From NCBI GenBank assembly GCA_965205505.1, contig CBDBHB010000009.1, forward strand, positions 1,696,001 to 1,760,000: a stretch of DNA of 64,000 bases, in the 5' to 3' direction. Below are positions 45,504-60,125 of this stretch, in pieces. The first letter of the stretch is position 1, and the number at the start of each line of letters is the position of its first letter. Origin of the DNA: Acidobacteriota bacterium (GTDB lineage: Bacteria; Acidobacteriota; UBA890; WLXD01). The position numbers and the translations under genes were made by a program. The notes beneath the pieces are model-generated. The model had not been told where the DNA came from. It saw only the letters and a program-made list of their open reading frames with translations, and ran no database searches.

Positions 45504-47848
45504 CAGTCTTGCCGCAGGGCGATGGCTGGGTCGACTGCTACAGCGCGGCGAGCCGGTATCACGATGGCGATCAGTGCGGCGGCGGCGAGCGCCAGTAGCG
45601 CGGTCGTGAAGGTGATGGGATCGCTCGGCTGAACCTCGAACAACAGTCCTCTGAGGACGCGACCGAAGGCGATCGCGCCGGCGAGTCCGATCGCCAGCCC
45701 GATGACCACCTGCACCATGCCCTGACGAACGACCATCCCCAGAATGCGCTGTCGCTGTGCACCTAGTGCCATCCGTAGGCCCATCTCGCGGGTTCGCTGC
45801 GTGATCGAGAACGCCATGACGCCGGCGATACCGGTTACCGTGACGATGAGCGCCAGGACGGCGAAGATGCCCAGTAGGGCGGCGGTCAGCCGCGGCGACG
45901 CTACTGCGTCGGCGCGCAGCGCGGCCATCGGATGCAGGTCGCTGATCGGGTTGGCGCCGAGAGCATAGGCGGCGTCCTTGACGCTCTGGCCAGCGCTTGC
46001 CGGATCACCCACCGTTCTTAGCATGAGCCACGTCGGCATGCCGGCCTGACCGAAGGGACGGTAGAACTCCGCCGTGACAGGTGTTTCCGGACCATAGATT
46101 CGTGTATCGCCCGCCACGCCGACGATCGTGATCCAGGTGTCGCCGTCATCGAAGCTGACGCGTGCACCGATCGGCTCCTCCTCGGACCAGTACAGCCGAG
46201 CGAGTGTCTCGTTGATTACCGCTACCGGGGCGGCGTTGGGCTCGTCGCGGCTATCTAGCAAGCGGCCGCTGAGCAGCGGAATCCCGAGGACCTCGAAATA
46301 CTCATGCGTGACGACGTTGAGGTCCAGCTGGGGTCGTGTCTGGGTCTCCTCAACGGCGCGTCCTTCGATGACGAAATCAGCCAGGTTCGGATTCGTCTGC
46401 CGGTACGGCGGCTTCTGCGTCAGCGCCGCGGTTCGCACCAAGGGACTGTCACCGACCGCAACGACCAGCTCTTGCAGGTAGTCGTGCATCTCGGTCATGT
46501 CGTTGAACGCCGTGAAGTCCAATGAAACCCGTGCGGTCAGCACGTGCTCGGTGTCGAAACCCGGGTCGATGGCTTGCAGCCGCAGGAGGCTGCGCAGCGT
46601 CAGGCCCGCACCGATCAGCAGAATGAACGCCAAGGCGACCTGCGCGACGATCAACGCACGGCGCAGCCGCAACCCACCGGTTGCGGTGGAGCGGGCTCCG
46701 TCCTTGATGGCGCCGCCGAGATCGCGCGTGCCGGGAAACGCCGGGAAGGTGCCGAAGGCGATGCCGGTGCCGAGCGAGATCAGCAACGTGAAGGCCAACG
46801 CCCAACCGTCGATGGTTACCGTCGCGGCGCGCGGCGTGTAGCGCCCGGCGAACTCGACGAGCATATCGAGTCCGACATAGGCGAACACCAAGCCGACTGC
46901 GCCACCGATTATCGCCAGGACCGCGCTCTCGGTGAACAGCTGGCGCATCAGGCGGACGCGGCTGGCGCCGAGTGCCGCGCGCACCGCCACTTCCTGTTCT
47001 CGACGCATCACGCGGGCCAAGCTCAGGTTGGCTACGTTGGCGCAGGCGATCAGCAGCACCAGCCCGGCGGTGGCCAGCAACATGAGCAGCACCGGTCGGG
47101 CGTTCCGGGTGAGCTCCTGCTTGAGGTCGACGACCCCCGCCGTGAGGTTCATCTCGGCTGGGTAGGCGTCGGGGAAGTCTGCTTCGAAGCGCGAAGCCAC
47201 GCTGGCGATCTCAGCGCTGGCGTTGCCAACCGTTGCGCCGCCCTGCAGCCGGCCGAAGACGAACAGGTTGCGGAAGGCGTTGCGGTTGCCCGCCATGTTG
47301 CGCTCTGCGTTGGCGCGGTACGGGCATGCAGAGGTTGGCATGTAGACGTCGACTGCGTTGGGGAACTGAGGAATCGGCGGTAGCACGCCTACTACGGTGT
47401 GCGGACGCGTGTTGACCTCGAACACCTGCCCGACGACGCCAGGATCTGCGCCGTGGGCGTTGCGCCAGTAGTCGTAGCTCAGAACTAGGACCGCCTCGGA
47501 GTCGAGGTCGTCCTCACCTTCCACGAACGTCCGTCCCAGCAACGGGGCCACCCCGAGCGTGTCGAAGAAATTGTCGGAAACGACACCGGCCTGGATTCGT
47601 TGCGGCTCATCCTTGCCGAGCAGCACGAAGAACATCGTGTGGTACTCGACTAACTCCTCGAAGCTGGTGGCTTGCTCACGGTAGTCGTAGAGCTCCGGGA
47701 TAGAGGCTTGGACGTTGGCGATCCGTGCGCCGGGCGCGGACTGCTCCAGCAGCACCAGCCGGTTGCCGTGCTCGTAGGGCAGAGGCCGAAGCAGTACCCC
47801 GTAGATGATGCTGAAGATAGCCGTATTGGCACCGATGCCGTCCGCCAT
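45503..47848 (-). CDS. ADOP-type ABC permease, 3' part (interrupted by island)
   Basis: GIGANTAIFS, LLIACANVANL, RAALGA, RTREMGLRMALGA, duplicated MacB/FtsX architecture. Confidence 0.9.
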   Translation of the reverse strand: MADGIGANTAIFSIIYGVLLRPLPYEHGNRLVLLEQSAPGARIANVQASIPELYDYREQATSFEELVEYHTMFFVLLGKDEPQRIQAGVVSDNFFDTLGVAPLLGRTFVEGEDDLDSEAVLVLSYDYWRNAHGADPGVVGQVFEVNTRPHTVVGVLPPIPQFPNAVDVYMPTSACPYRANAERNMAGNRNAFRNLFVFGRLQGGATVGNASAEIASVASRFEADFPDAYPAEMNLTAGVVDLKQELTRNARPVLLMLLATAGLVLLIACANVANLSLARVMRREQEVAVRAALGASRVRLMRQLFTESAVLAIIGGAVGLVFAYVGLDMLVEFAGRYTPRAATVTIDGWALAFTLLISLGTGIAFGTFPAFPGTRDLGGAIKDGARSTATGGLRLRRALIVAQVALAFILLIGAGLTLRSLLRLQAIDPGFDTEHVLTARVSLDFTAFNDMTEMHDYLQELVVAVGDSPLVRTAALTQKPPYRQTNPNLADFVIEGRAVEETQTRPQLDLNVVTHEYFEVLGIPLLSGRLLDSRDEPNAAPVAVINETLARLYWSEEEPIGARVSFDDGDTWITIVGVAGDTRIYGPETPVTAEFYRPFGQAGMPTWLMLRTVGDPASAGQSVKDAAYALGANPISDLHPMAALRADAVASPRLTAALLGIFAVLALIVTVTGIAGVMAFSITQRTREMGLRMALGAQRQRILGMVVRQGMVQVVIGLAIGLAGAIAFGRVLRGLLFEVQPSDPITFTTALLALAAAALIAIVIPARRAVAVDPAIALRQD

Positions 47849-48079
47849 AGTAATACAACTAAAGTATGTGTTTACAACAGTTTACAGGAACTTCTAGTGG
47901 ACTATCACCTCACTATTCCCACCATTAAATCTGGGAATAAAGCGAACTTCTCCGGACCTCTGGGGAGCCCTGAACACACCGAGCGCCGAGGCCGCAATCG
48001 CACCCGGGGCTGCAACTTCACCACGCATCGCTGCCTCTGATTGCCCTATCTTCGGGTCGCTAGCACAGGGAGCCGACCT

Positions 48080-48367
48080 TCACGGGCGCGCCCGAGCCGT
48101 ATCCTTCACCCGTCCTGCTCCTCCAGGTGCCCAGGGCACTGCCTGGTCCCATAGCGCCTCCAGGGCTTCGGTGTCGCCGGCAGCGCGGGCGCGTACGAGC
48201 GCTGCCAGGAGTGCCCCATCCATCCGGAACACGTCTGTGCGCCGGTACCAGGTCGGTGGCCCTCCAGCCGCGGTGAGCTCCACTGCCTGATCGGTCACGG
48301 ACAGCACACGCCGCAATGCGGCGCGCCCACCCGCCATGCGGCACACAACCAGCTGGCCTCTCTTCAT
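48080..48367 (-). CDS. Small hypothetical protein
   Basis: 95-aa ATG ORF, divergent from 48437. Confidence 0.4.
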   Translation of the reverse strand: MKRGQLVVCRMAGGRAALRRVLSVTDQAVELTAAGGPPTWYRRTDVFRMDGALLAALVRARAAGDTEALEALWDQAVPWAPGGAGRVKDTARARP

Positions 48368-48436
48368 GCAGCACGATAAGAGCTTAAGCTAGGAAGTCTC
48401 GGGTGAACCCCTAACCTACTGACGAGAGACAAGGTA

Positions 48437-48877
48437 ATGGCTATCAGCAAGGCCGTTCGTGACGGACTCCAAGCAGAACAGGCGAGCGTTGCGGATGAGA
48501 TGGCTCAGCTTGAGGCACGGCTGCAGTGGCTGACAACACGACAGACCGCCCTCCGCTTAATCCTGGAACAAGAGGCAGCACCTCCGGAACAAAAGGCCCC
48601 GCCGGACACCGGATTACGTCGACTCGGTGTTCGTGATGGGGTTCGAGCGGTACTCAAGGAAGCTGGGGCGCTGAAACCTGCCCAGGTTACGCGGAGTCTG
48701 CGCGATTGTGGCTATCAGTTCAAAGGAAAGACGAAGCCGGGTGCGCGTGTCGGACAGGAGCTTTGGGCGATGGCCAAGTCGGGCACGCTGAGCAAGAACT
48801 CCGCTGGAGAGTACTTCTTGCCCGGTGAGGAACAAGACGAACCGGAGGGCTACGCCACCGCCGCCCAGCTCCGATGA
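48437..48877 (+). CDS. Coiled-coil plus putative winged-helix protein
   Basis: N-terminal heptads, C-terminal wHTH-like pattern, RBS AAGG. Confidence 0.55.
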   Translation: MAISKAVRDGLQAEQASVADEMAQLEARLQWLTTRQTALRLILEQEAAPPEQKAPPDTGLRRLGVRDGVRAVLKEAGALKPAQVTRSLRDCGYQFKGKTKPGARVGQELWAMAKSGTLSKNSAGEYFLPGEEQDEPEGYATAAQLR

Positions 48878-49217
48878 GGATGCCTCAGCCGTTGTCCGGA
48901 ACGAATCAGCCGGCGCAGGTGCGGACAGCGGTACCGAGGCAGAAGGGTCAGGAGCATCGAGTTGACGGTCTTGAGGTGGTGCTGGTGAGTTCCACTCCAT
49001 TCGATCCGTCACTGCCGGGTGATGGACCTTAGCCCCTTCGGTGGCGCTCAGGGTCCGGTGGCGTTTGTCTTTCACGACGGCGGCACGACGCCGCTCGATC
49101 TTTCCTTTCACTTCCTCGACGCCGATGGCGGTTCCGAAGTTACCCCGGAACTGTGCGCCGCCGAGACCGGTGGCCGCGTCCATGCATCTGCTCGAAGTCC
49201 GCGACGAGAAGTCGACC

Positions 49218-49274
49218 TTAGGTTCAGGACCTAGTGGGGGCAACCCCGTGGAGGTTCAAGTCCTCTCTTGGGCA
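49218..49274 (+). pseudogene. 3' fragment of tRNA-Leu(CAG), att-site scar
   Basis: Anticodon arm TTAGG-TTCAGGA-CCTAG, long variable arm, GGTTCAAGTCC T-arm, acceptor CTTGGGCA; no 5' half. Confidence 0.8.
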
Positions 49275-49425
49275 CTTGATGTAACCTATTGACAGGTAAC
49301 GAGTTGCGGAAGGGAGCCGGCCGGCGCGGCCAGGTTCCTTTCGGCGTTTCAGGGCCAGAAAGTAACGAACAGGTAACGGGAGGCGCGTGTCCCGGCAGCG
49401 TAGCTCCGAACTGGAGCATCGCTCC

Positions 49426-49610
49426 TACTTCCTCCGGGCCGTTAGCTCAGTTGGCAGAGCACCGGCCTTTTAAACCTGCCCCGCCCGGTTTCCGGAACCC
49501 TGCAGCGACGGGCGATTCCGCGCTTTCTCCCGTCGACATGGCCACTTACGAGTTTACGTAGGGTTGCGCAGTTTACGCAGCTTTAGCTCCGCGTAAGGGC
49601 AAAACAAGGG
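49426..49610 (+). repeat. Direct repeat copy 1: 5' half tRNA-Lys(TTT) (49436-49473) plus arm-like sequence
   Basis: GGGCCGTTAGCTCAGTTGGCAGAGCACCGGCCTTTTAA followed by non-tRNA sequence conserved with copy 2. Confidence 0.9.
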
Positions 49611-49879
49611 CGGCACGAGGGGCGCGACGCGGAAGGTGCCTGCTCTCGCCTACCCTGCTAACGCGCTCGCCGAGCCGACTCGGCCCGATCCAACGGACGC
49701 TCGCCCCGTAAGATTCCTGCCGTCTAATCAACGCTCGGGTCGGCGTAAGTTCCTGCATAGAAAGAAATTGACGACGGGCGCCCTGGTGCTACAGCCGTGG
49801 GGGCTGGTGTCGAACACGCGAACAACGGCGACCCAATGGGCAACAGACGCCAACGGTCACAGCGGTAATGGATTACCGC

Positions 49880-49977
49880 GGACACTGTACGAGTACGCGT
49901 GCCACGAGGGGAACTACTCGCTCGCCAATACCCTGAGTGGCGCGCGCTATGAGGAGACCAGCGAGGAGAACAGATAG
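49880..49977 (+). pseudogene. C-terminal fragment of a YEYACHEGN-motif protein
   Basis: LYEYACHEGNYSLANTLSGAR without a plausible N-terminal region. Confidence 0.55.
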
Positions 49978-50074
49978 CGCCGGTCGCCAGCGCGGGCGAC
50001 ATGGTACGGTGGCATGGCTCGATGCGTGGATGCTGCATTCGACCAAATGAGCTCACACAGACAGGAGAACGGCG

Positions 50075-51337
50075 ATGGGCGACGATCGACACCGCGTGGA
50101 TCAGACAGGGCTACGAACCCCCGACAACACGCCGACGATGCCGCGAGCAGGCCTGGCACTGGCGGGAGTGCTGGCGACTGTTCTGCTGGTGACGGTGTCT
50201 GTGCTGAGCACGACCGCGACCGTCGACGCAGCGTCGCATCCGCCGATCCAGGCGCAACAGTCGGGCGATGCCGCGATGCCCGACACCGATTCGATGAGCG
50301 ATGAGGAGTTCGTAACGCTGCTGGCGTCAGCAGAGCTGGGCCCCTACGCGCGTGAGGATGCTCTCGCCGATACGTTCTCGCTAGAGCGCGCCGTCAGCTT
50401 CCTCGATCGGGTTGCCCTGACATGGGGTGAGAAGTACGGCTGCGTCACCTGCCATACGAACGGTTTGTATCTCACGGCACCGCCCGAGATCTTCGGCGAG
50501 CGCCGTGCATTCGAGATCGTACACAGTCAGGCTGCCCGTTTCGTGCGCTCCTGGCGCGCCAACGACGTGCCTGGCAACGATGCGCCCGCCCCAGACGTGC
50601 CGGACGTCGTTGGCACGTCTGCGTTTCTGGCCATCAACGAGGCCCAGTCCGGTGAAAAAGAGCTCAGCGACATCACCGTGGAGGCGCTCGACCGCGCCTG
50701 GTCGCTACAGGACGAAGGGGGCCACTGGACTGGGTTTGTATCCAACTGGCCGCCGTTCTACGATCGCCAGTGGCCCGTCACGCTGATGGCGATCGCTACC
50801 GGCATGGCTCCGGGCGACTACGCCAGCACTGACGCCGCCGTGGAGGGGATGCGCAGGATTCGCGACCACATCGACGCGAACCCGCCCGAGTTCGCCCACA
50901 ACCGCGGCATGCTGCTGTGGGCCGGCAGCGTCAACGAGGGGCTGGTCAGCGACGCCGATCGCCAACGCTGGATCGACGAGCTTCTCGATCTGCAGCGTGA
51001 CGACGGTGGCTGGGCCTCGGGAAAGCTCGGCGTATGGCGTATGCGCAAGGGGCTCGACACCGATCCCCCGGTTACTGTCGAAAGTGATGGCTACGGCACC
51101 GGCTTCGTCATGTACGTCCTGCGACAGGCCGGCGTGCCGGCGTCGCACGCCGCGATCCAGCGCGGTGTCGGCTGGTTGAAGGCGAACCAGCGGGCCGGAG
51201 GGTACTGGTGGACCCAGTCCATACGCAATAGCTTCACAACCTCGAACTTCCTGACGCACGCCGGCACGACGTTCGCGGTCAAGGCGCTCGCGGCCTCTAC
51301 GATCGAAACGGGAGGCGTCGCCAACACCGAGCGTTGA
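50075..51337 (+). CDS. Exported prenyltransferase/squalene-cyclase repeat protein with CxxCH
   Basis: QW-like repeats LQDEGGHW, LQRDDGGW, NQRAGGYW; CVTCH; N-terminal hydrophobic segment. Confidence 0.75.
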   Translation: MGDDRHRVDQTGLRTPDNTPTMPRAGLALAGVLATVLLVTVSVLSTTATVDAASHPPIQAQQSGDAAMPDTDSMSDEEFVTLLASAELGPYAREDALADTFSLERAVSFLDRVALTWGEKYGCVTCHTNGLYLTAPPEIFGERRAFEIVHSQAARFVRSWRANDVPGNDAPAPDVPDVVGTSAFLAINEAQSGEKELSDITVEALDRAWSLQDEGGHWTGFVSNWPPFYDRQWPVTLMAIATGMAPGDYASTDAAVEGMRRIRDHIDANPPEFAHNRGMLLWAGSVNEGLVSDADRQRWIDELLDLQRDDGGWASGKLGVWRMRKGLDTDPPVTVESDGYGTGFVMYVLRQAGVPASHAAIQRGVGWLKANQRAGGYWWTQSIRNSFTTSNFLTHAGTTFAVKALAASTIETGGVANTER

Positions 51338-51427
51338 GCGCCACCCCCGAACGTGCTGATCGTCGGCGTTGACACTCGGCCGTCCGCCGTAGCGAAGACT
51401 CGTAACGCCGTGCCGCGCGAGCGCTTA

Positions 51428-51610
51428 TACTTCCTCCGGGCCGTTAGCTCAGTTGGCAGAGCACCGGCCTTTTTAAACCTGCCCCGCCCGATTCCGGGAA
51501 CCCTGCAGCCATCGGCGTTTACGTGTTTTCCATAGCTGACATGGCCACTTACGAGTTTACGTAGGTTTGCGCAGTTTACGCAGCTTTAGCTCCGCGTAAG
51601 GGCAGAACAA
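51428..51610 (+). repeat. Direct repeat copy 2: 5' half tRNA-Lys (51438-51476) plus arm-like sequence
   Basis: Matches copy 1 with one extra T in the loop and a diverged middle; overlapped at its start by TATACT. Confidence 0.9.
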
Positions 51611-51906
51611 TGGGCGTTTCGCGAAAGAGGCAGGGCTCGGTCGTAGGTCCCGGACCGTCCGTTGCGGTCGTACCGCCGCAACTCGCCGTCGTCACGACCG
51701 CCCGGCAATCGAATACCGCTCTGGCCGGGCGGTCAGTGGTGCCAGCCGTTACTTCGGAACCCCGAGGCGCCGTCTGAGCTACGGCCTCAACCGGGCCATT
51801 CCCCCGAGAACGTGGTCCATCAAAACGACGGATCAGTTGCGGTCGCCTCGGGGGTCGCCGATCCCGCCAGTCCGCCGTTCGAGCCCCTCGCGTTACCGTG
51901 CAGGGC

Positions 51907-53109
51907 TCACCAGATTTCAGCCTCTACGAGGATCCTGGGAGGGTCATAGTCATCCGCTCCCGGGTGAGTCTGGAGGATCTCGCGCAGGCGACGGACCGCC
52001 AACAAGGCTGCGTGAACCAGATGGTACTCGTTGTCCATGAGGGTAGGGTCATACTCATTCTCATCGAGAGCATGCGCTGGTCTGTTTCGCTCATTCCTGA
52101 CGTCCTTTAGCGCGCTGATGACGACGCACCGCTCTTCAGTCGCGTGTTCAAAAGCGACCTCCAGAAACTCCCCCAGCAGCCGGATCGTTCCTTTCTCCTT
52201 AATGATGACCCCGTCGTCAGTCTCGGTTCTTGTCTGCAGATCCACCTTGCCCCTGAAGAACCTCTTGTTCAGGTTGTCGGACAGCATCTTGTCGGCCGTG
52301 AGCGCGAGGTCCTGGTAACTTCGGAGGGTGGGCTTGGTTATCCAGGCGAACTGCGCCGGCGCCCCGCTGGCGAAGTTCTCGCGGAACAGAGGAGGCTCTC
52401 TGATCAGTTCACAGATGACATTGATCTGTTGAATCTCCTGGACGACGGCCTCGAAGGGAGATAGGCGGTTCGCAAACTCCCCTTCAACGCTCGTCTTGAA
52501 GTAATCCGAGTCCAGGAGCAGCCCCTCCCGGTCGACCTCGTATGATTTCCAGTGCAGCTGATGCTCAACGTTCGCCTCTGCGAGATCTGCGAGAATCGCC
52601 GTTACAAACCGCGCGCTCCCCCCGTCGCTGTACGCTGCCCCCCACCGAACGTAGATCTTCCCCGGGTCTGCTAGGCCGCGCTCACGAATATAGTCGCTCC
52701 GCCGGACAACGAAGCCGGAAACCCCGGACTCGTCGAACCGATATCGCGGATCATCGCGGTACCGTTCGAGCGCTTGGCGATCGAAGAAGAAATCCTCAAC
52801 TTGTGACCCACTGTGCCGCAGCGCCTTTGTGTAGGGGCCCAGCTCGTCACCTGCCATGGGATCTCTAGGCTCAAGAAGCAATGCGGTCGGGAACACCCAT
52901 AGCTCGTCTCGCCCTTCGGGGATGCGAACGAGACCTTCTTCCGCGAGAGCTCTGACTGCGTCAGAAACAGCTTCTGAGGCTCTCGACGAGTGTGAGCGCT
53001 CGTCGACCAGTGTTACGAGCTTCCAGAGTGGGATGCCACAATGAGGGTGGCCCTCGAGCCACGAGTAGGCGATCGCATCGGCTACCACTTCCTTGAGGTG
53101 GCGGGTCAC
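51907..53109 (-). CDS. Hypothetical protein with C-terminal HEPN-like RxxxxH motif
   Basis: 400 aa, visibly lower GC, helical C-terminus with RNRPAH. Confidence 0.6.
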   Translation of the reverse strand: MTRHLKEVVADAIAYSWLEGHPHCGIPLWKLVTLVDERSHSSRASEAVSDAVRALAEEGLVRIPEGRDELWVFPTALLLEPRDPMAGDELGPYTKALRHSGSQVEDFFFDRQALERYRDDPRYRFDESGVSGFVVRRSDYIRERGLADPGKIYVRWGAAYSDGGSARFVTAILADLAEANVEHQLHWKSYEVDREGLLLDSDYFKTSVEGEFANRLSPFEAVVQEIQQINVICELIREPPLFRENFASGAPAQFAWITKPTLRSYQDLALTADKMLSDNLNKRFFRGKVDLQTRTETDDGVIIKEKGTIRLLGEFLEVAFEHATEERCVVISALKDVRNERNRPAHALDENEYDPTLMDNEYHLVHAALLAVRRLREILQTHPGADDYDPPRILVEAEIW

Positions 53110-53536
53110 CTCTCTTCCTCCTTTAGATCAATGGGGATGGCGAGCGCTCGCGCTTGACTCGCCGTGTCTGAGATCCGCATTGGCGAACCCCCTTGGTTGA
53201 CGGTGGCGCGCCGCGGATCGGCTAAACGCTTCCACGTGCATGGCTGCTACTCTGCCGGGAAGCTCGGGAAGCTCGGGAAGCGACAACCCTACTCTTGGAG
53301 CCGGCTAGACAACACCCTTGTTCCCTCTCGCTTACGTGATCTCTGCCCTCGTGCTGCCCTCACGTTGGATCGCTGCGCTGGCCTGGATGTGAGTACCCGA
53401 GGCTTCGCAAGGCTCGCAGTCGATCCGCTCACCGCGCTACGGTTGCGCAATGAGCAAGCGTCTTGAAGGTAGTGAACCCCTTCACAGATCTGGTGTACCG
53501 GTTGGTGCTACGGCCAACGATTTCTGGCAGTGGTCG

Positions 53537-54796
53537 TGACCTGACCCCACGGTTAGTACCACGTCTTATCTCAGTAACTCGGTGCTGACAAGGGGTTGTT
53601 GAGGCCGGCGAAGCGGAGCGTAGCCGGCTTCAACAACAGCGCCTCCGGGGCCGGTGGTCGGTAGCCCAACGAGCTGTGCGGTCGCATGCGGTTGTACTGC
53701 TGCCTCCATCTCTCGATCAGAACCTTTGCCTCCTTGAGCGTGTAGAAGATCTCGCCGTTGAGCAGCTCGTCTCGGAGCTTGCCGTTGAAGCTCTCCACGT
53801 AGCCGTTCTCCCACGGCGAGCCCGGCTCGATGAACAGCGTGCCCACACCGAGCCTACCGAGCCAGTCGCGAACCGCCTCGGCGGTGAACTCCGGTCCGTT
53901 ATCGGACCGGATGTGCTCAGGTATGCCCCGGTGCACGAACAACCACCCGAGCCGCTCGAGCACGTCCTCACAGTTGAGCTTCCGTGCCACGTCGATCGCC
54001 AGGCTTTCTCGTGTGTACTCATCGACGATCGTCAGCAGCCTCATAGCCCGACCCTCGTGCGTCCGGTGATGAACGAAGTCATACGCCCAGACGTGATCTT
54101 TGCGCTGTGGTCGCAGCCGGATGCACGAGCCATCGCTGAGCCACAGCCGGGCTCGTTTGGGCTGCTTTGTCGGTACTTTCAGCCCCTCACGCCTCCAGAT
54201 ACGCTGCACTCGTTTGTGGTTCACCCACCAGCCCTCCATACGCAACAACGCCGTCACTCGCCGATACCCGTAGCGCCCGTATTGTCGGGCTAGATCCACG
54301 ATCCGCTCCGTCAACATCTGCTCATCGCCCGGTTCTCTTGGCATGTACCTGTGTGTCGTGCGTGGTTGTTTCAGTACCCGGCACGCCCGCCTCTCGGAGA
54401 CGCCCAGCCGCCCCCGTACATGCGCCACCGCCTCGCGCCGTCGAGCTGGGCTCAGAAGTTTCCCTCCGCGACTTCCTTCAGGATCGACAGGTCGAGCTCT
54501 TTCTCCGCCACCAGTTTCTTGAGCCGGGCGTTTTCTTTCTCCAGCTGCTTGAGCCTTCTGGCCTGGTTGACCTTCAGCCCCCCGTACTCCCGCCGCCACC
54601 GATAGTAGGTGTGCTCGGTGATCGCTAGCTTGCGGCAGGCATCCTTGACCGTCCCGCCTTGCGCCAGCTCCACTTCAGCCTCCCGGAGCTTGCGTACGAT
54701 CTGCTCGGCGCTGTGCCTCTTCGTCGGCATTCTGACCTCCCCTTTTCGACCCAGATCGTGAGATTACCTCTGGATCCGTTTTGGGGGGTCAGGTCA
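53537..54796 (-). mobile_element. IS3 family element, OrfA 54452-54730 and overlapping OrfB ending at 53571
   Basis: 12-bp IR TGACCTGACCCC; DDE motifs WAYDF, SDNGPEF, ESFNG; GGGAAAC at the OrfA/OrfB overlap. Confidence 0.95.
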
Positions 54797-54937
54797 CGTA
54801 CGCGACGGCCATGCCCTGCAGGGCGGTCGCAACACCGCCGAACGCCACCGTCGTCTTCTGACCGCAGCGGCGATAGCGAGCGTTGCCAAGATATGGGGAC
54901 CCGCTAATTCGCTTCAGCTCGCTATCCTCTAAGTGCC

Positions 54938-55174
54938 TCATCGGCAACCCTCATCGCGCGCCATCGCTCGCACTTCGTCTGCGTCAGCAGCGCTCACGAT
55001 CCACTCCGCGGCGGTCAGCGTCTCGAGGTCCCGGCCCCACCATTGCCGGAGATTCTCGAGTGCCTCGTCCTCTGGCCAGCGCTCACCGTCGAAGTCCGCC
55101 ACCAGGGCCACCGCACCGAGGAACTGCTGCCGCGAGCCGATCATCCCGTACAACTCCGCGAACTCGTAATCCAC
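54938..55174 (-). CDS. Small hypothetical protein
   Basis: Protein-like 78-aa part of the ORF downstream of the iterons. Confidence 0.35.
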   Translation of the reverse strand: MDYEFAELYGMIGSRQQFLGAVALVADFDGERWPEDEALENLRQWWGRDLETLTAAEWIVSAADADEVRAMARDEGCR

Positions 55175-55187
55175 CCGAAGAGGCCAC

Positions 55188-55424
55188 TGTCGCACGGTTG
55201 TCGCAGTGATTCGAGCGGCTGCTGCACCCTCCTGTCGCACGGTTGTCGCAGGATTTGTCGCAGGCTCGGGGACAGCGGAATTCCGCTGCAACACCCGTAG
55301 TGCCGCCTCTTTCGCCCTCACGCCCTGCCTCCTTGTGTCGCACGGTTGTCGCACCGCTTTGTCGCACCGGCACGCATTCGTTGTCGCACAGTCGCACCCC
55401 CCTATGGGGGTGCAGACTGCGACA
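55188..55424. repeat. TGTCGCA iteron cluster, putative replication origin
   Basis: Nine direct TGTCGCA, one variant and one inverted copy around GCACCCCC-CTAT-GGGGGTGC. Confidence 0.75.
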
Positions 55425-55448
55425 CGTGCAACGGCGGGACGGAACGCC

Positions 55449-56852
55449 CTATTTGTCATCGAGGCTTCCCTCGGCGATCGCTGCTCGCCTGTGCCTGTAG
55501 ATGGTTGCTCGATGGAGACGGAGCTCGGAGGCCACAGCGCCCGGAGACAAACCATCGTTTAGCAACTCAATGACACGCTGCCGTGTCTGACCTTCGACGT
55601 CGGCGACGAGCCAGCTCATGAAGCCGTTCTCGTCGGTCGCGAGTTGCGCTTCGAATGAAGCTGCGTCGCCGCCGCTGAGCCCCCTGGCTTTCTCGAACCG
55701 AACCTCGAACCGGGCGCCATCCTCAGCCCGGTAGTCGCCCGGGCGCTGAAGCTTGACCACCACATCGAGAACATCCTCCCGGCGAGAGGTACCGCGCTGA
55801 GCACCGTTCTTGCCAGCGTGGTGCACGAGGAGGACGGCCACTCCTCGCCGCCTCAACCCCAGTAGAAGATCCTGAGCGGGTCCCCATGCTTCGGCCTCGT
55901 TCTCCGGACCGGCTCCGAACAACGTGGAAATATTGTCGAAGACTACGAGCTTGGCGTCCCCAAGGATCGCGTCGATGAGGCGCTCCCCCTCCGGGCTATC
56001 GAGCGCAGGCACCGGGATCTCCTGGGCGTCCGCGGCGAGGATTCGGAACGGGATTCTCGCGGTGTCGACGTCCGGAGCCAGCCCGGCGAGGAGATGACTC
56101 GTGCGCGTCTGTAAAGTTTCGATAGGCATCTCGCCATCGACGTAAAGCACAGGCGCCGGCTCAGCTGCCTTCCAGCCCATCACCGTTTGCCCGGTCGCAA
56201 CGCCGAGCGCAATGGAGAGCGCTACCCACGTCTTGCCGGTCCCGCGATTCGCGTACAGCAGGGCCAAGTCCTTCTCATAGAACCAAGGCGACAAGAGGGG
56301 CTGGCGAGGGGGTAGACGAAGTTCGAGATAGTCCGCGAGTTCATACACCCGGAACCGTTCCGCGGCACGGCCCGCACCGTTTGCGATCGCCGCGATGGCC
56401 TGCTGGGCTCCCAAGAGGACTACCTCAGGATCCGCGCCCGGGTCCATCGCCATGTTGCGGATAGTCTCTGCCTCGGCGATGGCGTCGCGCAGGATCGCTT
56501 TGTCCTTGATGCTGCGCGCGTACTGCTCGACGTTGGCCGCCGCCGGGATACCGTCGATGAGGCCGGAGATGTACGCCGCGCCGCCGGCGCGCTCGAGCAC
56601 GTCGCGTCGGGTCAGCTCCTCGCGCAGCGTCACCGTGTTGATAGTCTCCGAGCGCCTCGAGATCGCGCCCATTGCCTCATAGATCAGCCGATTGGCGTCG
56701 CCGAAGAAGTCGTCCGGAGTCAGGATCTGCGTGGCGGTGTTGAACGCCTGGTTGTCGAGCAACACCGCGCCGAGGATCGCCCGCTCGGCCTCGTCGAAGT
56801 GCGGCAGCGCGCGCTCCTCGTGCCGTGTCCGGACTTGACGCAGCCGCCCCAC
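55449..56852 (-). CDS. DnaB N-terminal plus AAA_25 (RepA-like) helicase with C-terminal HTH
   Basis: EAERAILGAVL, ANRGTGKT, YVDGEM, VFDN, VHHAGK, RGTS. Confidence 0.85.
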   Translation of the reverse strand: MGRLRQVRTRHEERALPHFDEAERAILGAVLLDNQAFNTATQILTPDDFFGDANRLIYEAMGAISRRSETINTVTLREELTRRDVLERAGGAAYISGLIDGIPAAANVEQYARSIKDKAILRDAIAEAETIRNMAMDPGADPEVVLLGAQQAIAAIANGAGRAAERFRVYELADYLELRLPPRQPLLSPWFYEKDLALLYANRGTGKTWVALSIALGVATGQTVMGWKAAEPAPVLYVDGEMPIETLQTRTSHLLAGLAPDVDTARIPFRILAADAQEIPVPALDSPEGERLIDAILGDAKLVVFDNISTLFGAGPENEAEAWGPAQDLLLGLRRRGVAVLLVHHAGKNGAQRGTSRREDVLDVVVKLQRPGDYRAEDGARFEVRFEKARGLSGGDAASFEAQLATDENGFMSWLVADVEGQTRQRVIELLNDGLSPGAVASELRLHRATIYRHRRAAIAEGSLDDK

Positions 56853-57103
56853 TACGCGACCTCGCCTCGGTCGCCGACACAGGCGGTACCGTTGAGCCCG
56901 TTGGGCTGTCGAATGTCCAGACCCCGGCCCGCTAGGGCCTCCAGGACCGCCTCCTGCATGCATCCGGCGTGACAGTGCAACAAGCACCTGCCCGTCGCGC
57001 TCAGGCTCGGGTTGCGGTCCTTGTGCGCCGGGCGGCGGCACATGCCGCCATGTCCGTTGGATCGGCGCTCGAGCGTGCGGACGATCTGCTCCAGGCTGGC
57101 CAC
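56852..57103 (-). CDS. Stand-alone primase zinc-binding-like domain
   Basis: PAHKDRNPSLS...LLHCHAGC. Confidence 0.65.
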   Translation of the reverse strand: MASLEQIVRTLERRSNGHGGMCRRPAHKDRNPSLSATGRCLLHCHAGCMQEAVLEALAGRGLDIRQPNGLNGTACVGDRGEVA

Positions 57104-57104
57104 G

Positions 57105-57329
57105 TCACGTTGACGGCTGGCGAGAGGCAGGCTGATCGCCCCCCGGCAGCGCGGTCGGACGGCTCGCTAACCACGCCTTGATGTCCGCCAGCCGCCAGGC
57201 TACGGCACGGCGGCCGATACGCACCGGACGGGGAAACTCCCCCGCATCCATCGCAGCATAGATCGCTGACCTGGAAAGTAGCGTGATCCGCTCGACTTCA
57301 GGACGCTTGATGAGGACTTGCTGCTCCAT
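57105..57329 (-). CDS. alpA: AlpA family regulator/excisionase
   Basis: LSRSAIY...GEFPRPVRIGRRAVAW. Confidence 0.92.
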   Translation of the reverse strand: MEQQVLIKRPEVERITLLSRSAIYAAMDAGEFPRPVRIGRRAVAWRLADIKAWLASRPTALPGGDQPASRQPST

Positions 57330-57440
57330 GAGGAACCTCCTTGGTTTTGCTGGTTCCTCCCACTGTGCAGGGGTACCTCTGGCCTGTCATGGGTGCGAGT
57401 TTCCGAAAACTCGCCCCCTCGGCCAGCGTGGCGCAACCGA

Positions 57441-58091
57441 CTACCGATTACCCCGCCATATGTCGCGCATGGTGCCGTACGTTTTCACAGCGTGGTCTCT
57501 TTCGGCGAGCACCTGGGCCACAATGTCGCAGGCGGAGGCACGCTCGGTAATTTCATTGCGCGTCTCAGGCATACCGCACTTCGTAAGCAGGTGGACCGCC
57601 CATCGGATTACGTCATTTCGCGCGGCCATCTTGGGGGCCGGCCCTCTGCTGCCCTTGCCGCCTTTCGGTCGCGGACACCGGCCGTGGATTACGTCGCCCA
57701 CCCAACGGTGCAGGGCTTTCCCGAGTGGACGTTCGCCTTCGGTGCGCACGAACGTCCACGCCAGCGCGTCCCAATCTACGGGGTTAGTACGTGATCCTTC
57801 GATAGTGGATTCGATATCCTCGCGCAGGGTCTTGTCTTTGCCCCGAAGAAACAACGCAGCGTACATCCATACGTTGTAGTTGTGGGCGATCGCTGGGTTT
57901 CTCCACGACGGGTCCAGGTCGAGCCACAAGCCCACAAGCGCACGCGCATCGTCGTTGGAAATGCGCTCTTTCTTATCAATGAATCGTGCCACGTGCTCGC
58001 GGTGTTGACGGTGAAACTCATCGTTCCGGGCTTTGTCTAGGACGGCACGCACAGGCAACACTGGTTGCCTCGCGCGCTCTTCTTCACCCAT
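57441..58091 (-). CDS. Hypothetical island protein
   Basis: ORF between integrase and AlpA, protein-like composition. Confidence 0.5.
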   Translation of the reverse strand: MGEEERARQPVLPVRAVLDKARNDEFHRQHREHVARFIDKKERISNDDARALVGLWLDLDPSWRNPAIAHNYNVWMYAALFLRGKDKTLREDIESTIEGSRTNPVDWDALAWTFVRTEGERPLGKALHRWVGDVIHGRCPRPKGGKGSRGPAPKMAARNDVIRWAVHLLTKCGMPETRNEITERASACDIVAQVLAERDHAVKTYGTMRDIWRGNR

Positions 58092-58395
58092 GAGCAAGCA
58101 CCGGCACGATGGTCTGGATCGGGGCGGGCAACCTGGAGTGCGGCCCGAGCCCACTGATCAATGCGTACAGCAGCATCAGGCCCAGGATGACGGCCGGGAT
58201 CAGCCTCAGCACGCGGCCCGAAAGGTTGATCATGGGCGGGCGGAGATCGCCCATCCGCACGTTGCCGAGCTCACCTCTGTCCATATCATCTCTCCGTAGG
58301 CACGGGGGCGGTGGGGTAGACACGTCTTCAGGGTAGCGTGCGTGGCCGTGTGCCAACCCACTTCAGCAGGCAGGGAACCGACCCGGTACTGCTCC

Positions 58396-59649
58396 CTAGA
58401 CAGGGCGCAGCATCGGCACCACCTTGCCGCCCTCAGCACTCAGGTAAGCGGCCCAGTCTTCCATCAGCTGCCGGCGCCGCTCCAGCAGGTCGGAGCGCGC
58501 ATAGGCCGCCTCGGTCGGGTCGCGCACCGCATGTGCCAGCGCCGCCTCCATGACCGCCCGCGGTGCGTTGGTGCACTCCGCCGCCCAGTCCCGGAACGAT
58601 GAGCGAAACCCGTGCGGCACCGCTTCAATGCCCAGCTGCCGCAGCACCCGGGAAAGGGTCGCGTCCGCCAGCGGCCTGCCGGCCCGTGCACCGGGAAACA
58701 CCAGCCCCTCGCCATCCCTGAGCCCCCGCGCCTGGCGCAGGATCTCCATTGCCCGGCCCGATAGCGGCACCCGGTGGGCCCGGTTCGATTTCATGCGCTC
58801 GGGTGCAAGAGTCCACTCCCTCGCCTCCAGGTCCATCTCCTGCCAGGTAGCCAACCGCACCTCGCCGGAGCGGGCCGCCGTCAACACCAGAAACTCCAGG
58901 GCCAGCTTCACCACCCCGGAGGCATCCGAAGCCCGTACCGCCTCGATCGCACCGTCCACCTCGGCATGCGGCAACGCCCGCATATGCTGTCGCCGCTTGC
59001 GGTGCCGTGGCAGCGCCTGGGTGATCGCCTCACCAGCCGGGTTGTCGCCACGGTACCCCTGCGCCATGGCCCACTTCATCACCGCACCGATGCGCGCCCG
59101 CACCCGCCGTGCGGTCTCGGCCTTGTCATGCCAGATCGGACCCAGTACCTCCAACACCTCGGCCGTCGTCACCTCCGACACCGGCATCTCACCGATGCGC
59201 CCGTACGCATAGGTGCGCAACTCCGTTTTCCATTGCGCCGCATACTTGGCGTTGCGCCACCCGGGGCGGTGCATCTCATACACCTTGGCCGCTGCTTGCG
59301 CGAACGTCGGCATGCCCTCGGCCCGGCGCTTGTCTGTCAGCGGGTCACCGCCGGCACGGGCCAGCTTGCGGTTGGCAAATGCCACCTCGCGCGCCTCCGA
59401 CAGCGACACCAAGGGGTAGCCTCCGAGACCCAGTTCCCGGCGACGGCCCTGGATCACGATCCGCTGTACCCAGCTGCGCGCTCCGCTCGGGATCACGTTC
59501 AGGTACAGGCCGTGTCCATCGCAGTACCGGCCCGGCTTCATTACCGTGCGTACGAACGCCGCCGACAGGGCCCGCTCCGGGTGCTTGCCGCTCTTGCGCC
59601 GAGGGCTGGGTTTCGGTGCAGTTGCTTGCGCATCGGCGATATTCTGCAT
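58396..59649 (-). CDS. P4-like tyrosine integrase
   Basis: DGHGLYL arm-binding domain, ARSGE, MK, HGFRSSFRDW, LAH, AYARSD. Confidence 0.95.
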   Translation of the reverse strand: MQNIADAQATAPKPSPRRKSGKHPERALSAAFVRTVMKPGRYCDGHGLYLNVIPSGARSWVQRIVIQGRRRELGLGGYPLVSLSEAREVAFANRKLARAGGDPLTDKRRAEGMPTFAQAAAKVYEMHRPGWRNAKYAAQWKTELRTYAYGRIGEMPVSEVTTAEVLEVLGPIWHDKAETARRVRARIGAVMKWAMAQGYRGDNPAGEAITQALPRHRKRRQHMRALPHAEVDGAIEAVRASDASGVVKLALEFLVLTAARSGEVRLATWQEMDLEAREWTLAPERMKSNRAHRVPLSGRAMEILRQARGLRDGEGLVFPGARAGRPLADATLSRVLRQLGIEAVPHGFRSSFRDWAAECTNAPRAVMEAALAHAVRDPTEAAYARSDLLERRRQLMEDWAAYLSAEGGKVVPMLRPV

Positions 59650-59753
59650 CCCCCTCTTATTCCGCCATTAAAGGCGGGAATGTAGCGGATTGTCCGGGAA
59701 CACGCAAGATGGACGAATACTCGTAACTGTCTGACTCTACTGATGCTTAGGGA

Positions 59754-60125
59754 CTAATAGGTCAACTTAGGAATGCACCGGATCTGAACGATGGCAGAGA
59801 TGCCGAGCGCCAATGTGAGCACCGCCGTGGCGGTGAATCCCCAGCTCTTGCCGAGCGTCCTAAGTGCGTAGCGGATGTCTTGTATCAGCATGTCGAAGTG
59901 GTTCCCCTTGCGCTCGTCGCGGCACTCTTCCTTGAAGCGCTGCGTGGCGCCGAAGCTCATGCGAGCCTTCCGCTGGGCTTCCTCGTGGCCCAGGCCCTGG
60001 TGTCGGTACTTGTCGGTTTCCATCTCGAGGTGGAACGACAGCTCGTCGTCGAGCTCTCGATCGTCCGCCCGTCGCCCGTCGCCGCGCAATCGCTCCAGCA
60101 AGTCTCCCCAAGCTCTCTTGCCCAT
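59754..60125 (-). pseudogene. ADOP permease 5' part, truncated at the att site
   Basis: [28 protein letters not shown], then 14 island-derived residues. Confidence 0.9.

What the first reader, a model, noticed from the sequence alone, without database searches (positions are those of the whole stretch)
49426..51610. Two tRNA-Lys 5'-half repeats delimit an integrase-free 2-kb cassette
Seen: two ~185-bp direct repeats. Each has TACTTCCTCC (full TATACT in copy 2), then a tRNA-Lys 5' half that stops exactly after the anticodon loop, then conserved non-tRNA sequence with GTTTACG repeats and AAGGGCA(A/G)AACAA. The middle has diverged while both ends are conserved. Knowledge: one integrase class crosses over in the 7-nt anticodon loop, and the usual scar is the 3' half, not the 5' half. 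Inference: these are attP-like junctions of tandem minimal cassettes that carry a promoter and the tRNA 5' half, an integron-like array mobilised in trans. Alternatively they produce tRNA-half chimeric RNAs.
Basis: partly seen in the sequence, partly recalled or inferred. Interest (0 to 1): 0.8.

Follow-up and report, generated by a model that had tools for sequence, protein, structure and literature searches.

The report
Stranded tRNA-Lys half-gene integration scars
Two 190-base repeats are the front halves of lysine tRNA genes fused to mobile-element arm DNA, most likely scars left by a rare class of integrating elements that enter tRNA genes from the upstream side; they look like relics, not an active cassette system.

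Summary
Window 49422-49612 and 51424-51616 are direct repeats. Each holds about 14 nt of tRNA-Lys upstream sequence of the type seen at other tRNA-Lys(UUU) genes of the genus, then the first 38 nt of tRNA-Lys(UUU) ending exactly after the anticodon loop, then a ~137-nt non-tRNA arm.

No 3' half, intron form, Rfam family or stable fold was found. Only two copies exist. The same block with the same cargo lies in one congener (G004). No cognate integrase or intact tRNA-Lys is adjacent.

The same genome holds two canonical "reverse-orientation" integrase islands, at tRNA-Lys(CUU) and tRNA-Arg(UCU). Their displaced 5' fragments end at the same loop position. A related integrase sits upstream of tRNA-Lys(UUU) in another genome (G135), with the same kind of fragment. 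A purine-rich motif lies about 120 nt past the crossover in those arms and in ours.

Best reading (about 0.65): stranded displaced 5' tDNA junctions of that known but rare class, now inside other islands. The 2-kb interior is decayed element DNA plus a chromosomal-type gene. The integron-like, trans-mobilised array is not supported. This is a new member of a known kind, of low to moderate interest.

The parts
47840..59798 (.). Host island of about 12 kb ('M family'), inserted inside a MacB/FtsX permease gene and flanked by GATGCC on both sides.
   Evidence: The site is empty in G003, G002 and G004:C11. At least 8 copies of its right end are in G000, and the left ends lie in FtsX-type targets.
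49219..49275 (+). 3' fragment of tRNA-Leu(CAG), positions 29-85 of the gene. It is the start of the 4.3-kb block shared with G004:C6.
   Evidence: 100% identical to tRNA-Leu(CAG) positions 29-85. In G004:C6 the block follows the intact, syntenic tRNA-Leu(CAG).
49276..49435 (+). Left flank of copy 1. The last 14 nt (49422-49435) are the tRNA-Lys upstream tail CGCTCCTACTTCCTCC.
   Evidence: 72% identical to the stretch upstream of the near-intact tRNA-Lys-Glu-Thr cluster in G004:C10, and 91% to G004:C2, where homology ends at tRNA position +6.
49436..49473 (+). tRNA-Lys(UUU) 5' fragment, copy 1 (38 nt, ends after the anticodon loop CTTTTAA).
   Evidence: 100% identity over positions 1-38.
49474..49612 (+). 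Arm 1 (P'-type arm). It holds TTACG/AGTTTACG repeats at 49546-49577 and the motif AGGGCAAAACAAGGGC at 49596 (+123 from the crossover).
49885..49978 (+). Fragment of the 3' end of another gene, a multi-copy conserved motif.
   Evidence: It matches several G000 loci, including C8:1124530-1124624. Contig depth in metagenomes is very high in the bin that holds it.
49980..51365 (+). Cargo segment with the ORF 50075-51337 (420 aa, signal-like N-terminus, CxxCH, prenyltransferase/squalene-cyclase-like C-terminal part).
   Evidence: 93.8% identical to G000:C8:1121711-1123097 and 87-88% to G001:C90 and G002:C24.
51384..51437 (+). Left flank of copy 2, including GCGCTTATACTTCCTCC.
   Evidence: 91% identical to the 54 nt upstream of the intact tRNA-Lys(UUU) of G004:C7.
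51438..51476 (+). tRNA-Lys(UUU) 5' fragment, copy 2 (39 nt, one extra T in the loop).
51477..51616 (+). Arm 2. It holds GTTTACG three times and AGGGCAGAACAATGGG at +123 from the crossover.
51907..53109 (-). Orphan 400-aa gene (P0001), the first gene after copy 2.
   Evidence: No hit in Pfam, NCBIfam, PHROGs or PADLOC. Besides its own record, 2 distant homologues were found. The model has an N-terminal winged helix.
53536..54796 (-). IS3-family insertion sequence that cuts off the shared block in G000.
   Evidence: rve, rve_3 and HTH_21 domains. It is multi-copy in all four congeners. In G004:C6 the block runs on without it.
58396..59649 (-). P4-type tyrosine integrase of the host island. It is not the cognate of the tRNA-Lys junctions.
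   Evidence: Arm-DNA-bind_3, Phage_int_M and Phage_integrase domains. BLASTP finds no significant similarity to the reverse-orientation integrases.

Best explanation
Each repeat is a displaced 5' tDNA junction. It holds the upstream tail and first 38 nt of a tRNA-Lys(UUU) gene, cut at the 3' edge of the 7-nt anticodon loop and joined to the ~137-nt arm of an integrative element.

Such junctions arise when a tyrosine-integrase element of the rare reverse-orientation class integrates. That class sits upstream of the tRNA gene, crosses over in the anticodon loop, and brings its own 5' half and promoter. The native 5' half is pushed to the far end of the element.

Two such junctions lie 2 kb apart. 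Their arms are related (87-89% identity over the whole repeat). They are now stranded inside other islands, without the integrase and without the regenerated tRNA-Lys.

The 2 kb between them is decayed element DNA plus a chromosomal-type gene, comparable to a CIME-like remnant. It is probably lost or kept by ordinary homologous recombination between the repeats.

Shown: the anatomy, the breakpoints, the canonical relatives, and the absence of integrase and 3' half. Inferred: that an integrase made the junctions, and the order of events.
For: 1. The breakpoint is exact and shared. Both copies lose tRNA identity right after loop position 38.

2. The census of tDNA fragments in G000 gives 44 fragment rows from 55 tRNA queries. 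Only 5 of the 44 are 5' fragments: ours twice, Lys(CUU) once and Arg(UCU) twice. The other three lie 6.5, 15.9 and 7.6 kb upstream of, and co-oriented with, their intact tRNA. They end at the same loop edge.

3. Those two islands carry 77%-identical tyrosine integrases. The integrases sit 31-76 nt upstream of the intact tRNA and point the same way.

4. In 6 of 9 relatives' loci examined, such an integrase is followed within about 33-67 nt by a co-oriented tRNA: SeC twice, Arg-UCU twice, Lys-CUU twice.

5. In G135 a 68%-identical integrase lies 33 nt upstream of tRNA-Lys(UUU). A 5' fragment lies 7.1 kb upstream, and its identity again ends after CTTTTAA.

6. A 16-nt purine-rich consensus was built only from the other arms. 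It scores 13 of 16 in copy 1 and 12 of 16 in copy 2, both at +123 from the crossover. In the canonical arms it sits at +119 and +121. The genome-wide frequency of 13 or more matches is 1.6e-5 per position.

7. The two left flanks match two different tRNA-Lys-Glu-Thr loci of G004: C10 at 72% and C7 at 91%. A plain local duplication does not predict this.

8. There is no orphan tRNA-Lys 3' half in the genome. This is expected if the element restores the gene.

9. Conservation between the copies is uneven, with sharp ends, as for protein-binding arms.

10. The class is known. Islander lists 159 of 3919 islands with a 5' fragment (PMC4383910, passages read). [quoted passage not shown]
Against: No intact tRNA-Lys lies downstream. 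There is none in the window, and the only tRNA-Lys(UUU) is 360 kb away on the other strand.

No integrase of the reverse-orientation family is near. G000 has two full copies, both elsewhere, plus one fragment. The window's integrase is unrelated.

G004:C6, which keeps the uncut continuation of the block, also has no integrase and no tRNA-Lys in the next 18 kb.

The arms are not significantly similar to the canonical arms by local alignment. Arm 1 against the Lys-CUU arm scores 19, and 79 of 500 shuffles reach that. Against the G135 arm, 72 of 500 reach it for arm 1 and 313 of 500 for arm 2.

The +120 motif was noticed before it was tested, so its p-value is optimistic.

Both copies carry the genus-type upstream tail. 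In a simple tandem array the inner junction should carry an element-type P arm instead.

Other tRNA-Lys truncations in the genus break at +6 or +10, or form a Lys/Glu chimera. So this locus also decays by non-site-specific routes.
Confidence: 0.65

Rival explanations
1. Plain decay. One tRNA-Lys gene carried on an island was truncated by an unrelated deletion or insertion that happened to end at the loop. The ~190-nt stump was later duplicated and its flanks were reshuffled by homologous recombination. It has no site-specific origin and no function.
For: Other tRNA-Lys copies in the genus are broken at other points: +6 in G004:C2, a 4-nt deletion in G004:C10, and a Lys/Glu chimera in G002:C22.

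The region is full of IS copies and tRNA fragments.

Only two copies exist and the cargo does not vary.

The one deletion joint seen lies in a 38-nt identical stretch of the distal arm, as homologous recombination would give.
Against: The breakpoint coincides to the base with four canonical displaced 5' fragments.

The motif sits at the same distance from the crossover.

The two flanks match two different tRNA-Lys loci.

Divergence between the copies is strongly uneven, with sharp ends.
Confidence: 0.17
2. Active cassette system. The units are working attP-like sites that let an integrase encoded elsewhere capture and move integrase-free gene cassettes.
For: A second integrase-free unit bounded by two 5' fragments exists in the same genome. 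It is the 8.3-kb Arg(UCU) unit, with DUF1501, DUF1800, racemase, HAD and oxidoreductase genes. No integrase was found among the 11 reading frames scanned.

The cargo gene is a recent copy of a chromosomal-type gene, 93.8% identical to C8.

The whole block is 99.6% identical between G000 and G004 while the core DNA is about 93-95% identical.

One public contig lacks exactly the 2003 bp.
Against: No variation of cargo was seen in any collection searched.

No integrase specific for tRNA-Lys(UUU) is in G000 or G004.

The deletion joint is not at the core. It lies inside a 38-nt identical stretch, and I recall that Logan assemblies use a word size of 31, so it may be a chimera.

There are only two units, not an array.
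Confidence: 0.08
3. Functional RNA. The upstream tail drives a chimeric RNA with a tRNA-Lys 5' domain, for example a decoy for an anticodon nuclease or a regulator of the neighbouring genes.
For: A -10-like TATACT lies 6 nt before the tRNA start in copy 2.

The orphan neighbour P0001 has a conserved R-x2-R-x2-PAH motif. From my own recall, this resembles the Rx4-6H signature of HEPN RNases.
Against: The fold energies are ordinary, with z-scores from -0.9 to -1.6 on either strand.

The simple scan calls no promoter and no terminator after the unit.

There is no Rfam match.

The structure search for P0001 gave only a winged-helix match, with best E 0.22.

The two units face genes of opposite orientation.

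No RNA evidence exists for the unit. The RNA-run contigs cover only other parts, or other organisms' tRNA-Lys.
Confidence: 0.05

Closest known systems
Reverse-orientation integrative elements. [quoted passage not shown] The Islander class is 'islands with 5' tDNA fragment'.
   Same: The displaced piece is the 5' part of the tRNA gene. The crossover is at the anticodon loop. The fragment lies at the element's far end next to an element arm. Canonical members with tyrosine integrases occur in the same genome, and one occurs at tRNA-Lys(UUU) in G135.
   Different: Here the integrase and the regenerated tRNA are missing. Two junctions lie only 2 kb apart, and the whole thing is a passenger inside other islands.
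CIMEs and tandem accretion of integrated elements (PMC5704250, passage read).
   Same: The unit has no integrase, is bounded by att-type sites, and lies next to further element DNA. It probably arose by decay.
   Different: The CIMEs in the passage I read keep attL and attR next to the target gene, and the example named there sits at the 3' end of a tRNA-Lys gene. Here the sites are of the 5' type, the target gene is gone, and no partner element able to move it is present.
Integron cassette arrays.
   Same: Only the picture is shared: promoter-proximal repeats separating integrase-free genes.
   Different: There is no IntI-type integrase and no attI. The fold of either strand is not more stable than shuffles. 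There are two units only and no cargo variation.
Split, permuted or intron-bearing tRNA genes.
   Same: A 5' half that ends right after the anticodon loop.
   Different: No 3' half is in the window or unpaired in the genome. An intact tRNA-Lys(UUU) exists elsewhere. The organism is a bacterium with tmRNA and tRNA-SeC.

Membership tests
Displaced 5' tDNA fragment of a reverse-orientation tyrosine-integrase island | The fragment is identical to the 5' part of a tRNA gene of the genome. | tested here: met
   38 of 38 nt for copy 1. For copy 2, 36 of 36 nt before the extra T.
Displaced 5' tDNA fragment of a reverse-orientation tyrosine-integrase island | Identity ends at a crossover sublocation (anticodon loop). 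| tested here: met
   It ends after CTTTTAA, as in the Arg(UCU) fragments (twice), the Lys(CUU) fragment and the G135 Lys(UUU) fragment.
Displaced 5' tDNA fragment of a reverse-orientation tyrosine-integrase island | An intact cognate tRNA gene lies downstream, co-oriented, at island distance. | tested here: not met
   There is no tRNA in the window. The only tRNA-Lys(UUU) is 360 kb away on the other strand. There is none within 18 kb in G004:C6.
Displaced 5' tDNA fragment of a reverse-orientation tyrosine-integrase island | A tyrosine integrase of the family lies between the fragment and the tRNA. | tested here: not met
   tblastn finds two full copies in G000, both on C7, plus one fragment on C9. 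The window's integrase is unrelated.
Displaced 5' tDNA fragment of a reverse-orientation tyrosine-integrase island | The arm next to the fragment carries the family's arm-type sites. | tested here: inconclusive
   The motif matches 13 of 16 and 12 of 16 at +123, against +119 and +121 in canonical arms. Overall arm similarity is not above shuffles.
CIME (cis-mobilizable element) | Bounded by att sites and lacking integration and transfer genes. | tested here: met
   Two att-type units bound 2 kb with one non-mobility ORF.
CIME (cis-mobilizable element) | It can be excised or moved by an adjoining element's integrase. | not testable with these tools
   Only assembled contigs were available. One deletion joint was seen, away from the core.
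Integron cassette array | An IntI integrase with attI and Pc, and folded attC sites. | tested here: not met
   No such integrase is in the island. Fold z-scores are -0.9 to -1.6.
Split or intron-containing tRNA gene | A matching 3' half that completes the cloverleaf. | tested here: not met
   There is no 3' half within 12 mismatches of 35 on the + strand of the window. No unpaired 3' half is in the genome. ARAGORN finds nothing.
Described structured RNA family (Rfam) | A covariance-model match at gathering score. | tested here: not met
   0 matches in the window. The best sub-threshold hit is a truncated tRNA at 18.5 bits.

The most novel reading that the evidence does not exclude
The ~190-nt units (tRNA 5' half plus arm) are working recombination sites. 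Through them, reverse-orientation integrases encoded elsewhere in the cell pick up ordinary chromosomal genes as integrase-free cassettes and move them between islands. This genome would then hold two such cassettes: the 2-kb Lys(UUU) unit here and the 8.3-kb Arg(UCU) unit on contig 7. That would be a tRNA-half-based analogue of gene-cassette capture.
Probability: 0.08. Interest if true: 0.65.

Novelty: new member of a known kind. Interest (0 to 1): 0.3.

Why it matters
The finding is a clear example of how to read orphan tRNA 5' halves in bacterial genomes. They are the footprint of a minority class of integrases that enter tRNA genes from the upstream side. About 4% of Islander islands belong to this class.

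The finding also points to a coherent integrase subfamily in this lineage. In the genomes searched, close members sit next to tRNA-SeC, Arg(UCU), Lys(CUU) and Lys(UUU). This could help island-finding software, which relies on the fragment plus tRNA plus integrase configuration and would miss stranded junctions like these.

If the bolder reading were true, it would add a new route of gene capture. The present evidence does not favour it.

Tried and rejected
**Complete tRNA with an intron or a distant 3' half.** Rejected.

**Known RNA family or stable structure.** Rejected.

**Promoter and terminator scan.** No promoter was called. Five terminator-like sites were found against 2.4 expected, and none closes the unit.

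**More copies of the arm.**
- BLAST of the 139-nt arm in 61 genomes gave full matches only in G000 and G004. Two weak hits of 32-34 nt in G011 and G013 were taken as chance.
- Exact-pattern scans of genome contigs (two patterns), viral contigs (two) and metagenome contigs (first pattern) gave 0 hits.
- The second metagenome pattern, a 19-mer at the junction, gave 119 or more hits. Of the 80 loci I looked at, 79 were one unrelated intergenic sequence from gut metagenome contigs and 1 was another unrelated site. None had a tRNA-Lys context.

**Arm homology to canonical arms by local alignment with shuffles.** Not significant.

**ACTCGTAAC shared by copy 2's flank and the island's right end.** There are 18 occurrences in the genome, so this is likely chance.

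**P0001 as a HEPN nuclease or recombinase.** No family hit was found. The model was moderate (pLDDT 62.8). Only a winged-helix match came back. It is not similar to the first gene of the Lys(CUU) island.

**Public runs.** All four laid runs are assembled contigs.
- One contig of X14 joins 49563 to 51567.
- Because the joint lies in 38 identical bases, and I recall that Logan assemblies use a word size of 31, I treat it as a hint only.
- Parts without cover, and the RNA-run contigs at 50763-51016 and 51190-51434, prove nothing about expression.

**Papers.** The Zhao and Williams 2002 and Williams 2002 papers are not held, so I saw only their titles in reference lists. Supplementary files were not consulted.

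Full report
**What is there**

Window 49422-49612 and 51424-51616 are direct repeats 2002-2003 nt apart. Each repeat has three parts:
- about 14 nt of upstream sequence (CGCTCCTACTTCCTCC in copy 1, CGCTTATACTTCCTCC in copy 2)
- the first 38 nt of tRNA-Lys(UUU), with one extra T in the loop of copy 2
- a ~137-nt non-tRNA arm

The 38 nt are identical to the 5' part of the genome's only intact tRNA-Lys(UUU), at G000:C9:2106941-2107014 on the minus strand. That gene is 360 kb away. Identity stops exactly after the 7-nt anticodon loop.

Conservation between the two copies is uneven:
- -14..-1: 12 of 14
- tRNA part: 38 of 39 columns
- first 14 nt of the arm: 14 of 14
- middle of the arm: 33 of 49
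- distal arm: 71 of 74
- columns beyond the repeat: 9 of 32

**What it is not**

- ARAGORN finds no tRNA in the window.
- No sequence within 12 mismatches of the 35-nt 3' half lies on the + strand of the window.
- No unpaired tRNA-Lys 3' half exists in the genome.
- Rfam gives nothing at gathering score, and only an 18.5-bit truncated tRNA hit below it.
- Both strands of both units fold no better than shuffles, with z-scores from -0.9 to -1.6.
- The simple scan calls no promoter and no terminator that closes the unit.

**Copies elsewhere**

The genome has only these two copies. Of 61 genomes searched with the arm, only G000 and its congener G004 hold it.

In G004 the whole stretch 49219-53536 recurs at 99.6% identity, with 17 differences. 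Ten of them cluster at 50496-50542. Pattern scans of the public genome, viral and metagenome collections found nothing related.

**Surroundings**

The units lie in a mosaic of mobile DNA.

- Window 47840-59798 is a ~12-kb island inserted inside a MacB/FtsX permease gene and flanked by GATGCC. The site is empty in G003, G002 and G004:C11.
- The island carries a P4-type integrase (58396-59649, minus strand), a DnaB-type helicase and an IS3 copy.
- It belongs to a family with at least 8 right ends in G000. The left-end flanks are FtsX-type targets.
- Window 49219-49275 is a 3' fragment of tRNA-Leu(CAG).
- In G004 the shared block sits directly behind the intact, syntenic tRNA-Leu(CAG). It runs on into a 560-aa gene and a 1747-aa helicase-nuclease gene before chromosomal DNA resumes. 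No integrase or tRNA-Lys follows.
- In G000 the IS3 copy cuts that continuation off at 53536.

**The interior**

The 2 kb between the repeats holds three things:
- about 270 nt of unassigned sequence
- a 94-nt piece of another gene's 3' end
- a 420-aa ORF with CxxCH and a weak squalene-cyclase-type match

The ORF segment is 93.8% identical to a locus on contig 8 of the same genome. It is 87-88% identical to genes in G001 and G002 that have no repeats beside them. So the cargo is an ordinary chromosomal-type gene, not a mobility gene.

**Flanks**

The left flank of copy 1 runs from the tRNA-Leu fragment to the tRNA-Lys start. It is 72% identical to the stretch upstream of a near-intact tRNA-Lys-Glu-Thr cluster in G004:C10. 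The 54 nt left of copy 2 are 91% identical to the stretch upstream of an intact cluster in G004:C7.

In both comparisons homology runs through the tRNA 5' half. It ends at the same base, the 3' edge of the loop.

The TA(T/C)ACTTCC tail is also found upstream of tRNA-Lys(UUU) in G003, G004:C7 and the G002 chimera. I read it as the tRNA-Lys upstream type of the genus, not as a cassette-borne promoter. G000's own intact gene has a different upstream sequence.

**The key comparison**

I used all 55 tRNA genes of G000 as queries for fragments outside annotated tRNA genes. This gave 44 fragment rows.
- 39 rows start at tRNA position 21 or later.
- 5 rows are 5' fragments: the two studied here, one of tRNA-Lys(CUU) and two of tRNA-Arg(UCU).

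The other three 5' fragments lie 6.5, 15.9 and 7.6 kb upstream of their intact tRNA, in the same orientation. Their identity ends at the 3' edge of the anticodon loop.

Both islands carry a tyrosine integrase with Phage_int_SAM_1 and Phage_integrase domains. It sits 31-76 nt upstream of the intact tRNA and points the same way. The two integrases are 77% identical to each other. They are unrelated to the P4-type integrase of the window.

In relatives, 6 of 9 loci examined have such an integrase followed within about 33-67 nt by a co-oriented tRNA: SeC twice, Arg-UCU twice, Lys-CUU twice. Three loci have none.

In a sample of 301 genomes of the phylum, 21 have a match at E of 1e-60 or better. 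ARAGORN on 15 further loci gave these results:
- One integrase, 68% identical, lies 33 nt upstream of a tRNA-Lys(UUU) in G135.
- Two lie upstream of a co-oriented tRNA-Ser(GCU).
- In 7 loci the nearby tRNA is in the opposite orientation to the integrase match.
- In 1 locus the tRNA lies about 750 nt upstream of the integrase.
- Four loci have no tRNA.

In G135 a 5' fragment of tRNA-Lys(UUU) lies 7.1 kb upstream of the intact gene. It carries a TATACT upstream tail, and its identity again ends right after CTTTTAA.

Its scars look exactly like the two repeats up to the crossover.

**Arms**

By local alignment, the arms here are not significantly similar to the canonical arms. The canonical arms are not significantly similar to each other either.

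Two features still link them.

- GTTTAC is rare, at 0.13 per kb. Only 10 pairs within 45 nt exist in the genome. Four of them are in this island: the left end of the host island and the two arms, all on the same strand.
- A purine-rich 16-mer (AGGG, eight bases, GGG, one base) lies at +119 and +121 from the crossover in the G135 and Lys(CUU) arms. It also occurs in the G135 P arm. A consensus built from those sequences alone matches 13 of 16 in copy 1 and 12 of 16 in copy 2, both at +123. Matches of 13 or more occur at 1.6e-5 of genome positions.

I noticed the motif before testing it, so this is supportive rather than decisive. A near-identical variant of our version of the motif lies about 80-96 nt upstream of the intact tRNA-Lys of G004:C7. 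That is a P-arm-like position.

**Reading**

The units are best read as displaced 5' tDNA junctions of reverse-orientation tyrosine-integrase elements, now stranded. Such elements are known but uncommon.
- Islander lists 159 of 3919 islands with a 5' fragment (PMC4383910, passages read).
[quoted passage not shown] It cites Zhao and Williams 2002, whose text I could not read.
- Integrase-free remnants bounded by att sites, and tandem accretion, are also described (PMC5704250, passage read).

I cannot tell how two junctions came to lie 2 kb apart. There are two possibilities:
- a decayed tandem array, in which copy 2 is a hybrid inner junction
- two separate hits on two neighbouring tRNA-Lys copies, followed by deletions

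The Arg(UCU) locus offers a parallel. Its first unit of 8.3 kb also lacks an integrase among the 11 reading frames scanned. Its two fragments also share their upstream flank.

**Activity**

No evidence shows that the 2-kb unit moves.

One contig of one public run (X14) joins 49563 to 51567 and skips 2003 nt. The joint lies in a 38-nt identical stretch of the distal arm, not in the loop. I recall that Logan assemblies use a word size of 31. The contig therefore shows either homologous recombination or an assembly chimera. The same run also holds interior sequence.

**Verdict**

The att-junction idea is supported.

This is a new member of a known kind. Interest is about 0.3.

Noticed in passing
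window 47840-59798; also G000:C8:465612, 550668, 640311; C9:918683, 331591, 2186561, 3139894: A multi-copy integrase island family is inserted at a conserved motif inside paralogous FtsX/MacB permease genes. The left end of the island supplies a new ATG (ATGGCGGAC) to the downstream part of the split gene.
   Followed up: partly
G000:C7:14150-20805 and G000:C7:583277-599248 (loci L215, L216): Two canonical reverse-orientation islands lie at tRNA-Lys(CUU) and tRNA-Arg(UCU), with 77%-identical integrases. The Arg locus has two 5' fragments. Its first 8.3-kb unit holds only ordinary genes (DUF1501, DUF1800, racemase, HAD, oxidoreductase).
   Followed up: partly
L086 (G002:C22:43569-43644): A chimeric tRNA-like gene has a tRNA-Lys 5' half fused to a tRNA-Glu 3' half, apparently through their near-identical anticodon stems. 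ARAGORN calls it tRNA-Gly(UCC).
   Followed up: no
window 51907-53109 (minus strand); L228:260-7476: An orphan 400-aa protein has an N-terminal winged helix and a conserved R-x2-R-x2-PAH motif. Besides its own record, only 2 distant homologues were found. In G004 it is followed by a 560-aa gene and a 1747-aa AAA_11/AAA_12 helicase with a REase_MTES_1575 domain. This may be a defence-type module.
   Followed up: partly
window 50496-50542: Ten of the 17 differences between the G000 and G004 copies of the 4.3-kb block fall in this 47-nt patch. The same variant letters appear in metagenome contigs. This looks like gene conversion with a paralogue.
   Followed up: no
window 49885-49928: A short stretch at the end of a broken reading frame falls in a bin with depth in the thousands in metagenome contigs, and it matches many loci in G000. 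It is probably a highly conserved protein motif of a large gene family.
   Followed up: no
G000:C9:617574-617648 (outside the window): ARAGORN reports a tRNA of unknown identity with a four-base anticodon (agca).
   Followed up: no
G135:C35:24382-31613 and G135:C42:52-9954: The same tRNA-Lys(UUU) gene appears to be used from both sides. A reverse-orientation island lies upstream, and two 3' fragments lie 4 and 10 kb downstream.
   Followed up: no
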